Source: the human T2T-CHM13v2.0 reference genome, Homo sapiens
Direction: 5' to 3' (one strand)
Length of the DNA stretch: 64,000 nt
Assembly: GCF_009914755.1 (NCBI RefSeq)
Contig: NC_060935.1
Part shown: positions 49,755-62,816 of the stretch, in pieces
How the letters are laid out: every line of letters begins with the position of its first letter
How positions within the stretch are numbered: the stretch's first letter is position 1
Translations under genes and position numbers: made by a program
The notes under the pieces: model-generated
Databases searched by the model: none
The model's input: the letters and a program-made list of their open reading frames with translations, nothing else
Told to the model about the DNA's origin: nothing

Positions 49755-50737
49755 CCTCCCACCCCATCCAGACGCCTTTATTCCCTTAAGGGATGTGGGG
49801 CTGGGCTGAGCTCGAGGAGGAGGACTGGGGCCAGAGATTGAGGGTGAGGCGGTGGCCTGGGCAGAGGAATCCAGTATGGGGAGAGAGCCCAGTGCCTGGC
49901 AGGGGAGGGTAATGGGGATAATGGGGACTTTGAAGTGGCCACTACATCCTGCAAAGCCCAGGCCTAGAGAATGGGGTTTATGTGGAGCCTCTGTGTGGAG
50001 AGGGGCCCCGACTGGGGATGTCAGGGTCCCCCTGCCCTTCAGGGCAGCAGCAAGCCTTCCTCCCAGCACCTCTGCTCTCATCTCCACATGCGCTCATGCA
50101 GAGGGCTTTGTAACGGCAGTAGTGTTAACAGCAGCAATTCATTGAGCACCTGCTATAAAACAGGCGGATCACTAGATATTTTACCTGCTTTCTCTCCTTT
50201 AATTCACTCAGCAACACAATCAACTCCATAATAGCCCTATTTAAAACCTAATGTAACTGTGAGTCAGAGAGGGTCAATGACTTGCCCAAGGTCACACAGC
50301 CTAAAAGGGGCTGGCTGTGTCAGCTTTCCAGCTGGTTCCCTGAATCACACATGCCAGGAGCTTTCCCCCGGGCACAGTGGTCTGTCCAGCACCGGGTGCT
50401 GGCTGATGATGTGCTTCCCAGGGGGCTGGAATGCAGGACTCTGGCCTGTCAGGGAGAGTTACAGTCTGATGGGAGGGGGCTGCTCCTGGCAGAGCCCGGT
50501 CTTTGATGGGGGAGCCCAGCTTTGATCTCCTTTTGAAGTCCCGGCCTCTGGAACCAGCAGCTTCAGTGGGGAGAGTGCAGGGGAAGGGGGAGATGAAAGG
50601 GCAGGGGAAGCCAGATTTGGAGAGAGAGGGGGGCAGCCACAAGGAGGGAAACAGATGTGTGCATGAGGACCCGGGAGACAGGGATCTGGGAGAGGGAGTG
50701 GGAGCGGCTGGTGGGAAGAACTGAGGGAAAGGAAATG
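49755..50737 (-). other. NECTIN1: Predicted non-coding 3'UTR terminal exon of the extended NECTIN1 isoform (3' end approximate)
   Basis: Pyrimidine-rich acceptor cccttccccctcctggccttccctgtctgcccacag|CATTTCC; junction to 53108 is reproduced at 54046-54161; AATAAA on the - strand at 49777-49782. Confidence 0.55.
49777..49782 (-). terminator. Candidate polyadenylation signal AATAAA
   Basis: TTTATT on the + strand; first canonical hexamer I found downstream of the 50737 acceptor. Confidence 0.4.
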
Positions 50738-53148
50738 CTGTGGGCAGACAGGGAAGGCCAGGAGGGGGAAGGGCTGAGTGTGCCACTGTGGGGCAGGGGA
50801 GACATGAGAGACAGGCTGGGCCCAGCAGCTCCTCACCCACCATCCCCAGCTTCAAATCCCCTTTCTGTTCCCAGGGAGGCCTTTCTGGCTCTGCCATGGG
50901 CTGACTCTCAGTGTCCAATGGTCCAGAAGTTCCAGTGAGGTCCTGGCTGAGGCCTTATCCAATGGCCTGGGGATGGGGCCAGGGGGAGGTGAGGAGCTCA
51001 CATCCAGGACTTTTCTGGGATCTATCACCCAGGCTTGCACCCCAGGCGAGGGGGCTGGGATGACGGATGGGGGAGGGTGTCTGCCGCATGGCGGTGCACC
51101 TGTTCCTGTCTGACATCCTGGTTCCTCCTGTGGGGCTGCCAAGCAGGGAAGTGAGAGTGCGTGGTGGGGCGGGCTGCCTGGCAGGAAGGGCTAATTCCCA
51201 GCTAATCCCCCAAGCCTACCCCACCCAGTGCCTTGCACTGCTCTCCCATCCCCCACACTCTCAGGTCCCCTTCAGCTCCCCGCAACGCCTCCCCTGTCCT
51301 GGCACCCTGTTCCAGTGCCCTTCAGACCCTGCACCCAAACAGAGGGCCTCTCTGGGGTTCAGGGCAGCAAGTGAAAGCCAATGAGGGGGCAGCAGTAGAC
51401 CCCTCCTTTTTTGAGTTTCCTTCAGGGGCGCCTGGGATTACACCCACTCCAACTCCACGTACTTCAGAGAGGCTGGGAGGAGGTCCAAATTAGGGTTTAT
51501 GGGATTAATGACTTTTCTTCTGGCCCCCCAGACTCTCTCCCCAACTCCAAGCCTCACGCTTTCCTCCCGTTGGCCTCTCCCGGGACCCAGACCTTACAAG
51601 GAGCTGCAGTAGCCAAGCATGCCTCCTTTCACAGGGGCTGGGGAGGGGAGGAACCGCATCTGGCACCCGGCCCCTTCCTCATGCCCACAGCACCCCTTCT
51701 TTGGCGAGGGAGAGGACAGGCTGGAGCAGGGACACATCCTGGTTCTCACACCAGGTTCTCCAAGGATGCTGCACAGACGGCCTCGGGCCCCTTGCTCTTC
51801 ACTCCTCCATACCTAAGCGGGGAACTGAGGCTAAGCACATTTCTGTTGAGGTGGCAGAGGATGGTGTGTCACAGGAGGACAGGAGGTGGTTGAGATGTAG
51901 TAGGGGTGGGGAACACTGGGAAGTGGGGAGCAGATTTCTGTTGTTTGTGGGTCCTGGGACCCAGCGGGCTCTCCTGGTGGGTGGGAAAGGTTCTGTAGGG
52001 GCCACCAGAGAAGCCCCTCCTGGGCCCATCCCCCTGTGCCAGCCGTCTCGGGACCTGCTGGCTCCTGGACCCATGGGACCCCTCTTATACTCAGCGCCAT
52101 CATGTCCCTCCCAGCAGTCCTGTCTCCTCCACCTGTCCTTGTCTCTGTCCCCGTCTCTCTCCCCTCCCACCCTGCTCATCCCAAACCACTCAGCACAAGG
52201 GCCGAGGCCAGGCTTCCTCACCGTATGTGGCCCCTTGGCCTGAGTCCCCAGCGCTCAAATTCCAGTTTCTCAGTCTGAGACACCTTCACCTTCCTTTGGC
52301 TCTCAGGGAGGTCACATGTTTGCTGAAACTCCTCTGATCTTACCACGTCCCCCAGACACTGCCTGGGGTCTTTGCACTGTGGCCTCTGTGTACCTCGCAG
52401 TATCTTCCAGGGCCCACGGTAGAGACAGCCCTGCTCACCACCCATCCCTGCAGAGCCTGTGGGCTCCCCTTCAGCCCAGGACTTAGAAGTCCCGAGCTGG
52501 CCACTCTACTGAGAGTGCCTCAAGGCTAGGAACTCCCCTGGACCCTGGGCCCTCTGCGCAGGGCCTGGAATGAGCAGGCACTCAATAAAGGTTGGTTGAA
52601 TTCAACTGTCCAGCTGGGCCGGGGGGTCAAGAGGAAATGTGGGTGTGCAGCCTTGACCCTGGGGGCTCCTTGGTAAGAAAATGAAGTGGAGGCCAGCGTG
52701 GTGGCTCACACCTATAATCCCAACACATTGGGAGGCCAAAGCGGGTGGATCACCTGAGTTCAGGAGTTTGACACCAGCCTAAGGGGCCGGCTGGGATGCA
52801 GGGAGTGAGGCCACTTCTGGGGCCCACAGAGGGATAAGGAGGACTGTTGGAACAGGAAGGGGCCCTAGACTTGATTTAGATTTCACCGGTGGGGAAACTG
52901 AGGCTCAGAGAGGGGAAACAGTGTATGGCAGAAATGGAACAACATTCCTGCCCTCTGGCTCCTGGTCCACATTTCTTCTCCTGTTCTCACCAGGCCCCTG
53001 CCCACCTCCCCCACCCTTTCATTGCCAAGCCCAGCAGGTAGGGTGCAGGCCCTTCCAGGAAGGGCAAGAAGGGGCTCTCAGAGCAGGAGGGAGGTGGGTG
53101 GGTTTACCTGTGGTCCAGAAGCAGGGGTGGGTGGCTAGGGGTTATGAG

Positions 53149-53289
53149 CTAGGGTGGGCTCAACTGGATGGTGGCATATTCCACAGCCTCTGCAGGCCCT
53201 GGCACGGGGGTCCGCAGCCCTGGCACGAGTTCCAGGGCAGAGGTGTCCAGCTCTGCATAGTGGCTGTGAGTGTCCTTTAGGCCAGAGCC
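53149..53289 (-). CDS. NECTIN1: Predicted alternative terminal coding exon of NECTIN1 carrying tandem ITIM/ITSM-like motifs (46 aa + stop; exon spans 53108-53289)
   Basis: Acceptor cctgtcccttctgcctcattcctag|GGC; open phase-0 frame GSGLKDTHSHYAELDTSALELVPGLRTPVPGPAEAVEYATIQLSPP*; in frame with the donor at 62143; downstream donor CAG|GTAAAC at 53107. Confidence 0.8.
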   Translation of the reverse strand, partial: GSGLKDTHSHYAELDTSALELVPGLRTPVPGPAEAVEYATIQLSPP

Positions 53290-54045: not shown

Positions 54046-54161
54046 CAGATGTGCGAATGGGGACCCAGGAGACAGGGAGCTGGGAGAGGGAATGGGAGTG
54101 GCTGGTGGGAAGAACTGGGGTAGAGAAAATGCTGTGGTCCAGAAGCAAGGGTGGGTAGCTA
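54046..54161 (-). other. Intronless local copy of a spliced NECTIN1 3'UTR junction
   Basis: 54132-54161 matches 53108-53137 (28/30) and 54046-54131 matches 50652-50737 (75/86); the join removes exactly a GT...AG segment. Confidence 0.75.
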
Positions 54162-54929
54162 CTGACAACTCACCCTGTGGCTGTGCCAAGCTCCTTTCCC
54201 TCCCAGGGCCTCAGTTTCCCCTTCAGCAAAATAGGAGGGTGGCTTGATGATCCCTGAGGTCCTTCCAGCTCTTCTCTCTAGATCTATCCTCACAAGCTCC
54301 TCCTCCTCAGCTCAATGCTCAGTGCCAGTGTGCAGGCAGATAGATCATCTGTCCACAGAGCAGGGGCTGAGGGAGAGGAGGGCTCTCGCACGCCGGGAGG
54401 GCAGGGGCTGGTACAGGAAGAAGGCTGTGTGCTATTGCAGGGAGCTCTGTGACCTGGGCTGCTGCTCACTCTTTTCCTTGGCTGGGCCGCCTGGGCAGCA
54501 GGGAAAGCTAGGTGTGCTGATTTCAGTTGCCCTCCATCAACGCCCATCTCGTGTCCATCAATGACACATGGCATGGGCAGGGACACATGGCAGAGCTAAG
54601 ATGAATGCAATGAGCTCCTGATTCCTCACAAGGGAAAGTCACACTCTGACACCTGCTCCTCCCTTTGGCCCTGTGCTTCCACAGCCTGCCTGGAGTTGGA
54701 GGTGGGGTCAGGGGCTGGGAGGAGACACCTCTTTTCCAGAAGGAAGCAGCCTGGGTTGGAGGTTGGGGGTACAGGAGACCAGGGGCAGAAGGAAGGGGAA
54801 GGAGGCTAGACAGACAGGAAGTCTGGGTCCCAACCCACAAGTTGGGGGGACCTATAAGTGTGGCTGAGGGGCGGGGAGGTGGGGTCTGGGCAAGCAGCAC
54901 AGTGTGAGTAGGAGATGCTGGGAGCAAAA

Positions 54930-62107: not shown

Positions 62108-62257
62108 CTAGGGGCACTCTCCTCGAGGTTCGGTTGTCCTTACCGAGGGGTGGTAGGAGGGGGAGACCCCCAGATCATAGTAGGGGGGCTGCAGGGACAG
62201 CTTCTGCAAGTCCTCCTCTTCTTGCTGCTGCTGCCTCCCTGGGTCCAGGTGGACAAC
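62108..62257 (-). CDS. NECTIN1: NECTIN1 beta last coding exon as classically described (ends VRTTEPRGECP*)
   Basis: Acceptor ttctcttccag|GTT; 150 nt = VVHLDPGRQQQQEEEDLQKLSLQPPYYDLGVSPSYHPSVRTTEPRGECP plus TAG at 62108-62110; contains internal donor TCG|GTAAGG at 62143. Confidence 0.95.
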   Translation of the reverse strand, partial: VVHLDPGRQQQQEEEDLQKLSLQPPYYDLGVSPSYHPSVRTTEPRGECP

Positions 62258-62740
62258 CTGGAAGAGAAGGCGGTGAGTGCTGCACAGACCTTTCCATGCC
62301 CCTGCTCCAGGTGGCCCTCATGGACTCCCAGTTGGATTGGGACTCCTCAGTTCCCATGCACCCCCATTCTGGCATCCCCCACACTGGTGACTGTCTTGGA
62401 GGGCACAAGTGCACCCTAAGCCTTTAGCTTTGCTGGCTCTAGCAGGGACCCAGCTTGGGGCCAGGCACCTGAGAGGTGCTCAATGCATTTTTTAAATGAA
62501 TGAAAGGACTGTGAGGTAGAGGAAGAGGTCCCCTGGGGGCCCTGGGTAGGGAGAGTCCTAGGTTGTCATCTCTTAGGGTGAGGCAGATGGATCCCTCTAG
62601 CATGGACCTGGCCTTGTGGGAACTGGACCATGAAGGCGTGGCGGCTCTGTCTTCAGCTTGGGCTCTCTCCTTGGGGCCATCTCCCATTTTTCTCCCTCCC
62701 CGCAGTCCAGGGACCTTGTCCTCTGCTGCCTCAGGCCCAC

Positions 62741-62816
62741 CTGGATATCCTCAGGCACAAGGGAGCTTTGCCTGCTGGGAGAAGGCTCCGGCTTCTGGGA
62801 GAGGGGCTGGTCGGTC
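62741..62816 (-). CDS. NECTIN1: NECTIN1 beta cytoplasmic exon (76 nt)
   Basis: Acceptor tctccag|G; encodes (G)TDQPLSQKPEPSPSRQSSLVPEDIQ; donor CAG|GTGGGC; phases match both neighbours. Confidence 0.96.

What the first reader, a model, noticed from the sequence alone, without database searches (positions are those of the whole stretch)
54046..54161. Genomic splice fossil: a 116-bp intronless copy of the junction between the hidden exon and a downstream exon
Seen: 54132-54161 matches 53108-53137 (28/30) and 54046-54131 matches 50652-50737 (75/86), with no gaps. On the - strand the two source segments end at CAG|GTAAAC (53107) and begin after ...ctgcccacAG| (50738), so the copy lacks exactly a 2370-nt GT-AG intron. 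It lies in the same orientation about 0.8 kb upstream of the exon and has no poly(A) tail. Inference: a cDNA fragment of the gene's own spliced mRNA was inserted into its own intron, for example by RNA-templated break repair. That would show the extended transcript was spliced in the germ line. About 11% divergence suggests an old primate event. Caveat: donor and acceptor share CCACAG, so a microhomology-mediated DNA template switch could produce the same junction.
Basis: partly seen in the sequence, partly recalled or inferred. Interest (0 to 1): 0.85.

Follow-up and report, generated by a model that had tools for sequence, protein, structure and literature searches.

The report
Intron-less copy of a splice junction
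A 116-base stretch downstream of NECTIN1 is a real, one-off copy of two nearby segments joined exactly as if a 2,370-base intron had been spliced out, most likely a scrap of spliced RNA copied back into DNA at an old break, though a purely DNA-level copying slip is not excluded.

Summary
54046-54131 matches 50652-50737 (75/86) and 54132-54161 matches 53108-53137 (28/30), both ungapped. The missing 2,370 bp is bounded on the minus strand by CAG|GTAAAC and ...ctgcccacAG|.

The copy is not chance and not a repeat family. The 116-mer has two places in the genome. The 'intron' is single-copy apart from an Alu fragment and a MIR-like core.

There is no poly(A) and no target-site duplication, so this is not a classical L1 retrocopy.

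Of 30,115 direct-repeat pairs of ≥6 bp in 20 kb, 5 mimic an intron with splice scores this good; one of them is an annotated NECTIN1 intron. A 6-bp junction ambiguity occurs in 6 of 215 real introns. This favours a spliced-RNA origin, like the cDNA patches captured at double-strand breaks (PMC4516963, PMC5110952).

Against it: no annotated minus-strand transcript uses these sites, and the source lies only 0.9-3.4 kb away, which suits DNA template switching. No RNA or outgroup data could be consulted.

Verdict: RNA patch about 0.55, DNA-level event about 0.3. It is a new member of a known kind, of moderate interest.

The parts
54132..54161 (-). Copy, part A: the last 30 nt of the putative upstream ('hidden') exon. 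54132-54137 is the 6-nt stretch that could come from either source segment.
   Evidence: 28/30 to 53108-53137. The 24-mer is specific genome-wide.
54046..54131 (-). Copy, part B: the first 86 nt of the putative downstream exon.
   Evidence: 75/86 to 50652-50737; 88% over 92 nt including the ambiguous 6-mer.
53108..53137 (-). Source segment A: 3' end of the putative exon, lying in its untranslated part 12 nt after the stop.
50652..50737 (-). Source segment B: start of the putative terminal exon.
50738..53107 (-). The 2,370-nt GT...AG interval absent from the copy (putative intron). It is single-copy apart from an Alu left-arm fragment (52696-52780) and a MIR-like core (52880-52917), and it overlaps an annotated H3K4me1 hESC enhancer (52009-52884).
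   Evidence: Donor CAG|GTAAAC scores 6.6 bits (31st percentile of 200 true donors). The acceptor scores 12.6 bits (76th percentile of 214 true acceptors).
53108..53289 (-). Putative 'hidden' exon. Its acceptor ...cattcctAG| scores 11.1 bits (57th percentile). It holds a 46-codon open frame ending in TAG at 53151-53149, with two ITIM/ITSM-like tyrosine motifs. It is not annotated in RefSeq.
49777..50203 (-). The only two canonical poly(A) signals on the minus strand between 46.5 and 54.2 kb (ATTAAA 50203-50198, AATAAA 49782-49777). They lie 0.5 and 1.0 kb downstream of the 50737 acceptor, a possible end of the terminal exon.
54170..54237 (+). MIR-like repeat core directly to the right of the copy (context of the insertion site).
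   Evidence: pair I8.

Best explanation
A minus-strand transcript crossing 53.3-50.6 kb was spliced from the donor at 53108 to the acceptor at 50737. This transcript was either a 3' extension or read-through of NECTIN1, or an unannotated RNA. A 116-nt internal piece of the spliced RNA, truncated at both ends, was reverse-transcribed. It was captured as a patch at a chromosome break about 0.9 kb upstream in the same transcription unit, in the germ line or early embryo of an ancestor. End-joining sealed it, leaving no poly(A) tail and no target-site duplication. It has since drifted neutrally to 11% divergence. Shown: the copy, its exact GT-AG-shaped gap, its uniqueness, and the absence of L1 hallmarks. 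Inferred: the RNA intermediate, the break, and the identity of the transcript.
For: The gap has exact GT...AG limits on the strand of NECTIN1. Donor and acceptor score at the 31st and 76th percentile of true sites. The donor closes a 182-nt exon-like unit with a 57th-percentile acceptor and a 46-codon frame. That frame is in phase with NECTIN1 exon 62741-62816 and with an internal donor at 62144. Only 5 of 30,115 local >=6-bp direct-repeat pairs (200-5000 bp apart, 20 kb, both strands) give a GT-AG reading with both scores at least as good. Those 5 include the observed pair and the annotated NECTIN1 intron 62258-62740. A junction ambiguity of >=6 bp is found in 6 of 215 annotated introns, so the shared CCACAG is not unusual for a real intron. 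My rough likelihood ratio from these counts is about 30-170 for a spliced origin (inference). There is no TSD and no poly(A), and the 116-nt size lies inside the 73-414 bp of experimental templated insertions (PMC5110952, section 4). Mouse-zygote breaks captured 5'- and 3'-truncated, poly(A)-less pieces of spliced Pcnt and Inadl mRNA. They also captured a 50-bp piece of Peg10 cDNA at a break in Peg10 itself (PMC4516963, passages and section 6). No other non-transposon local duplication occurs in 46-58 kb, so there is no local habit of DNA shuffling.
Against: RefSeq annotates no minus-strand transcript or exon between KRT8P7 and NECTIN1 (annotation given), so the intron is hypothetical. The donor is mediocre (GTAAAC, 31st percentile). 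Acceptor-like sites are dense on this C/T-rich strand: 22 at or above this score in 20 kb. The source is 0.9-3.4 kb from the insert. Reported templated insertions came from distant loci without regional preference (PMC5110952). A randomly landing retro-fragment would fall within 4 kb of its source about 3 times in a million (my arithmetic). A strong cis bias must therefore be assumed. NECTIN1 isoform 2 transcripts were undetectable in one neuronal RNA-seq set (PMC11306101, passage). Junction microhomology at the outer ends cannot be read without the empty site. My splice-site matrix is crude (200 donors and 214 acceptors from GC-rich chr11 loci).
Confidence: 0.55

Rival explanations
1. A DNA-only event. 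Either replication or repair synthesis at 54046 switched template to 50652-50743, jumped forward on the 6-bp microhomology CTGTGG to 53108-53137 and returned (MMBIR/FoSTeS type). Or a 2.5-kb dispersed duplicate later lost 2,370 bp between the two CTGTGG copies. The splice-site look is then coincidence.
For: Both templates lie within 3.4 kb, are collinear and in direct orientation, and the internal junction has 6 bp of microhomology. Germline multi-template insertions exist: about 100 events of >=25 bp per genome, some with several templates copied forward (PMC8421209, passages). Short-range template switching is described in great apes (PMC7954356, search listing only). No transcript is annotated here. 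6.9% (2,079 of 30,115) of local >=6-bp repeat pairs can be read as a bare GT-AG.
Against: Only 5 of 30,115 such pairs (1.7e-4, the observed one included) have splice scores this good. The donor also ends an exon-like open frame. The insertions linked to MMBIR in PMC8421209 are defined by templates within 100 bp and inverted copies, unlike this case. No other local non-transposon duplications occur in 12 kb.
Confidence: 0.3
2. An ordinary L1-mediated (target-primed) retrocopy fragment of the same spliced RNA, whose poly(A) tail and target-site duplication have since been lost or eroded.
For: Intron-less; 5' truncation is common in such copies; old enough (about 11%) for decay.
Against: The copy ends 86 nt into the downstream exon, 0.45-0.9 kb short of either poly(A) signal. 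No A-run and no TSD are present. There is no A-rich tract in the source after 50652 for internal priming.
Confidence: 0.05
3. The contiguous 116 bp reflects the ancestral arrangement. The 50.6/53.1-kb copy was later split by a 2,364-bp insertion flanked by a 6-bp target duplication (in effect an intron gain).
For: The CTGTGG...CTGTGG flanks formally resemble a 6-bp target-site duplication.
Against: The interval is single-copy in the genome except for an Alu fragment and a MIR-like core. It therefore does not look like a young transposon or a segmental duplicate, although ancient, highly diverged repeats would escape this search. It would still have to bring a GT and a polypyrimidine tract to the right places, which is the same 1e-4 coincidence.
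Confidence: 0.04
4. Chance similarity, or three members of an interspersed repeat family.
For: None beyond the G-rich, low-complexity flavour of the sequence.
Against: E = 2e-24. The 116-mer has only two places in the genome. The 24-mer is specific.
Confidence: 0.01

Closest known systems
RT-product-mediated double-strand-break repair (capture of reverse-transcribed spliced mRNA fragments; Ono et al. 2015, PMC4516963, passages and section 6 read)
   Same: An internal mRNA fragment truncated at both ends, introns skipped, no poly(A), no TSD. It occurs in zygotes and is therefore heritable. One captured fragment there came from the cut gene itself.
   Different: Those events were induced by Cas9 and are de novo, whereas this one is natural, fixed and about 11% diverged. 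The exons here are unannotated. Outer-junction microhomology cannot be read without the empty site.
Class 2 templated sequence insertion polymorphisms (Onozawa/Aplan; review PMC5110952, passages and section 4 read)
   Same: A patch of templated sequence with an intact donor. Templates include cDNAs with spliced exons. No TSD, poly(A) signal or tail. The size is within 73-414 bp.
   Different: These insertions are defined as templated from a distant region, whereas this donor is 0.9-3.4 kb away in the same transcription unit. This copy is not known to be polymorphic.
Processed pseudogene / L1-mediated retrocopy
   Same: Loss of an intron through an RNA intermediate.
   Different: It has no poly(A) tail, no TSD and no 3' end at a poly(A) site. 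It is only 116 nt long and sits inside its own parent locus.
MMBIR/FoSTeS templated insertions (PMC8421209, passages read)
   Same: Nearby templates, a multi-template join, and microhomology at the internal join.
   Different: The copies are direct rather than inverted. The templates are kilobases rather than <=100 bp away. The join coincides with good splice sites.

Membership tests
cDNA-patch repair (RMDR / class 2 templated insertion) | The insert is a copy of sequence found elsewhere, and the donor is left intact | tested here: met
   Both source segments and the interval between them are intact.
cDNA-patch repair (RMDR / class 2 templated insertion) | RNA intermediate shown by precise removal of a real intron | tested here: inconclusive
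   The gap has exact GT-AG limits and good site scores, but the exons are not annotated and no RNA data were available.
cDNA-patch repair (RMDR / class 2 templated insertion) | No target-site duplication, no poly(A) tail | tested here: met
cDNA-patch repair (RMDR / class 2 templated insertion) | End-joining marks (microhomology, small deletions) at the two outer junctions | not testable with these tools
   This needs the pre-insertion site from an outgroup genome. An attempt to use the flanking MIR-like element as a stand-in failed.
Class 2 templated sequence insertion (as defined in PMC5110952) | The template lies in a distant genomic region | tested here: not met
   The donor is 1,024 and 3,394 bp away. 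I therefore file this as working like such a patch, not as a textbook member.
Processed pseudogene (L1 target-primed) | 3' poly(A) tail at the mRNA end, plus a flanking TSD | tested here: not met
MMBIR-type templated insertion | Nearby template(s), with microhomology at every switch | tested here: inconclusive
   The templates are nearby and the internal join has 6 bp of microhomology. The outer joins are unreadable without the empty site. The orientation is direct and the distance is kilobases, unlike the <=100 bp inverted class of PMC8421209.
Interspersed repeat family | Many dispersed copies | tested here: not met
   The 116-mer has two places in the genome. The 24-mer has the two copies plus one chance hit.
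Structured RNA gene | A stable fold or an Rfam match | tested here: not met
   z = +1.42 against shuffles. There is no relevant Rfam hit in 48-55.5 kb.

The most novel reading that the evidence does not exclude
The fossil is a cis event: a break in the NECTIN1 transcription unit was patched with that unit's own freshly spliced RNA. It thereby records germ-line use of an unannotated NECTIN1 3' extension. The coding exon of that extension (53289-53152) would give nectin-1, the herpes simplex entry receptor, a cytoplasmic tail with an ITIM/ITSM-like tyrosine pair. The nectin-family review I read attributes such a motif only to PVR (PMC7286890, passages).
Probability: 0.2. Interest if true: 0.65.

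Novelty: new member of a known kind. Interest (0 to 1): 0.4.

Why it matters
If RNA-derived, this would be a natural, fixed human example of break repair with a spliced-RNA patch taken from the broken gene's own transcript. That speaks to whether such repair prefers RNA in cis. It would also be independent, DNA-archived evidence that an unannotated exon pair downstream of NECTIN1 was transcribed and spliced in the germ line. If it is a DNA template switch, it is a cautionary case of how microhomology joins can imitate splicing. Either way there is no sign that the 116 bp itself has a function.

Tried and rejected
Repeat family: rejected.

Structured RNA: rejected.

Classical retrocopy: rejected.

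Empty-site proxy. I tried to show that the two flanks are adjacent parts of one MIR-like element by comparing them, as they stand, with other MIR-like copies in the window and in chr15/C24 loci. The right flank matches from 54170 on. The left flank scored at null level against all 7 window copies tried and against the two fetched loci tried (L003, L007). The test was inconclusive.

Reality of the hidden exon. A paralogue search in the genome found only the exon itself. One search was a first try one base out of frame and is void. The word search with the 46-aa peptide gave no candidate; because only proteins of 25-80 aa were eligible, this says nothing about full-length isoforms. The Atlas search gave a best score of 0.83, which is uninformative. 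A longer query could not be made without joining exons or reading through stops, so it was left out.

Literature. A search for retrocopies in their own intron (200 papers holding at least 2 of the 3 terms, 12 listed) gave nothing specific. A 'nectin-1 + ITIM' search (15 of 97 listed, titles and abstract starts only) showed no paper on an ITIM in nectin-1. The ENST00000341398 search gave only an expression remark, not an exon structure. I recall that Ensembl extends NECTIN1 about 14 kb beyond the RefSeq end, but could not verify it, and it is not used as evidence. Supplementary files were not opened; the supplementary figures of PMC4516963 on the Peg10 fragment may bear on the cis-capture point.

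The absence of masked repeats is weak evidence, because the table masks only 22% of chr11.

Full report
**Observation.** The two matches are exactly as reported. 54132-54161 vs 53108-53137 is 28/30, and 54046-54131 vs 50652-50737 is 75/86, both without gaps. An independent repeat finder gives the same two pairs with spacings of 1,024 and 3,394 bp, which differ by 2,370. Homology stops abruptly at both outer ends. The join is ambiguous over six bases: + strand CTGTGG occurs at 50738 and at 53108, and once in the copy. Read on the minus strand, the upstream segment ends ...GGACCACAG|GTAAAC and the downstream one begins after ...ctgtctgcccacAG|. The copy therefore lacks precisely a 2,370-nt GT...AG interval.

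**Not chance, not a repeat.**
- The 92-bp match has E = 2e-24 and the 30-bp match E = 2e-5 in a 0.9 x 20 kb comparison.
- The 24-mer beyond the ambiguous hexamer had no match at <=3 mismatches in 100 shuffles of the window.
- In the whole genome that 24-mer hits only itself, the source and one 3-mismatch site on chr20.
- The whole 116-mer has two places in the genome.
- Within 46-58 kb, every other repeat is Alu or a MIR-like core, apart from one doubtful 27-mer. This is an isolated event, not part of a shuffled neighbourhood.

**The source locus.**
- On the minus strand, 53289-53108 looks like an exon. Its acceptor ...cattcctAG| scores 11.1 bits (57th percentile). It carries a 46-codon frame, GSGLKDTHSHYAELDTSALELVPGLRTPVPGPAEAVEYATIQLSPP, then TAG, then 41 nt of untranslated sequence, then the donor.
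- The copied 30 nt lie in that untranslated tail.
- The frame starts in phase 0, as does the end of NECTIN1 exon 62741-62816 (the coding lengths sum to 1,227).
- An internal donor TCG|GTAAGG at 62144, inside the last exon of NM_203285.2, is also in phase 0. That RefSeq stops on its stop codon and has no 3' UTR.
- Downstream of the 50737 acceptor lie the only two canonical poly(A) signals on this strand between 46.5 and 54.2 kb.
- The 2,370 bp is single-copy apart from an Alu left-arm fragment (52696-52780) and a MIR-like core. It is not a young transposon, which argues against the 'ancestral sequence split by an insertion' reading.
- RefSeq annotates nothing on this strand here (annotation given).

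**RNA or DNA?** I built crude position-weight matrices from 200 GT donors and 214 AG acceptors of NM_ introns in 20 ten-kb chr11 loci.
- The donor CAG|GTAAAC scores 6.6 bits (31st percentile of true donors). The acceptor scores 12.6 bits (76th percentile).
- In 44-64 kb there are 30,115 left-maximal direct-repeat pairs of >=6 bp lying 200-5,000 bp apart. Of these, 2,079 (6.9%) can be read as a bare GT-AG on some strand, so GT-AG alone means little.
- Only 5 pairs (1.7e-4) have both scores at or above those observed. The five are the observed pair, a pair that uses the same donor with another acceptor, the annotated NECTIN1 intron 62258-62740, a pair that uses that intron's real donor, and one unrelated pair.
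- A junction ambiguity of >=6 bp is seen in 6 of 215 annotated introns, and the annotated intron next door has 7 bp. The shared CCACAG therefore does not argue against splicing.
- Taking P(ambiguity >= 6 | intron) = 0.028 and P(both scores >= observed | true sites) = 0.69 x 0.24, against 1.3-1.7e-4 for a DNA join, gives a likelihood ratio of roughly 30. It rises to about 170 if only a fifth of DNA joins have >=6 bp of microhomology. This is my inference and rests on a crude matrix.

**The counterweight is location.** The donor is 0.9-3.4 kb from the insert. That is what template switching predicts. Reported templated insertions came from distant loci on 18 of 24 chromosomes (PMC5110952, section 4). 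A randomly landing fragment would fall this close about 3 times in a million (my arithmetic). An RNA origin therefore needs capture in cis of the locus's own nascent or just-spliced RNA. There is one suggestive precedent. Among the exonic fragments captured at Cas9 breaks in mouse zygotes, one 50-bp piece came from Peg10, the gene that was cut (PMC4516963, passages and section 6). That piece does not itself prove an RNA intermediate.

**Type of insertion.** There is no A-run and no flanking duplication of >=5 bp at the borders. The copy stops 86 nt into the downstream exon, far from either poly(A) signal. It is therefore not a target-primed L1 retrocopy. It resembles the 5'- and 3'-truncated, tail-less spliced Pcnt and Inadl fragments of Ono et al. 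and the class 2 insertions of Onozawa and Aplan. At 116 bp it lies within their 73-414 bp range. It fails that review's 'distant template' criterion, so I say it works like such a patch rather than filing it as a standard member. Germline multi-template DNA insertions also exist (PMC8421209, passages), but the class defined there is inverted and templated within 100 bp.

**Age.** The 13 differences comprise 10 transitions and 3 transversions, with 3 at CpG. The K2P distance is 0.124. The two parts do not differ in divergence (2/30 vs 11/86, Fisher p = 0.51). At 2.2e-9 to 1e-9 substitutions per site per year this gives 28-61 Myr. Poisson limits at the same two rates stretch it to about 14-96 Myr. 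'Old primate' is plausible but loose.

**What could not be done.** No outgroup genomes, no RNA reads and no GENCODE models were available. The protein word search for the exon peptide was blind to full-length isoforms. The attempt to reconstruct the insertion site from the neighbouring MIR-like element failed.

**Verdict.** The best reading is a spliced-RNA patch (about 0.55, plus about 0.05 for a decayed L1-type copy). The serious rival is a DNA template switch or a duplication followed by a microhomology deletion (about 0.3). The ancestral-contiguous reading gets about 0.04 and chance or a repeat family about 0.01. It is a new member of a known kind. It is interesting mainly as a possible cis example and as indirect evidence for an unannotated NECTIN1-linked exon pair.

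Noticed in passing
window 53108-53289 (-), with 62144 and 62741-62816: The unannotated exon-like unit encodes 46 aa with SHYAEL and VEYATI, an ITIM/ITSM-like pair with 27 residues between the tyrosines. Only 2 such open-frame pairs occur in the six-frame translation of the whole 64 kb; the other is inside KRT8P7. The frame is in phase with NECTIN1 exon 62741-62816 and with an internal GTAAGG donor at 62144. A family review attributes an ITIM only to PVR (PMC7286890, passages). There is no paralogue in the genome.
   Followed up: partly
window 62108-62257 (-): RefSeq NM_203285.2 (NECTIN1 variant 2) ends exactly on its stop codon TAG (62110-62108), so it has no 3' UTR and is 3'-incomplete. Its last 11 codons lie beyond a 40th-percentile internal donor at 62144 and could be intron read-through.
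   Followed up: partly
window 62258-62740: This annotated NECTIN1 intron has a 7-bp junction ambiguity (ACCTGGA), a handy local control showing that real introns can carry long 'microhomology'.
   Followed up: yes
window 52696-52780 (+) and 52880-52917: An Alu left-arm fragment (85-110 bp, 83-93% to many genomic copies) and an inverted MIR-like core lie inside the 2,370-bp interval. They overlap, or lie just beyond, an annotated H3K4me1 hESC enhancer at 52009-52884.
   Followed up: partly
window 54170-54237; loci L003-L012: The MIR-like core next to the copy is 81% identical over 62-68 bp to a sequence present in at least 10 copies on chr15 (80.3-83.0 Mb) and C24, presumably carried inside segmental duplications there.
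   Followed up: no
window 49777-49782 and 50198-50203 (-): These are the only two canonical poly(A) signals on the minus strand between 46.5 and 54.2 kb, and both lie within 1 kb downstream of the 50737 acceptor.
   Followed up: no
window 54162-54180 (-): Immediately upstream of the copy, the minus strand reads CCACAGG|GTGAGT, a 65th-percentile donor-like site (9.1 bits) that begins with the same CCACAG hexamer as the copied junction. This is probably chance or MIR-derived.
   Followed up: no
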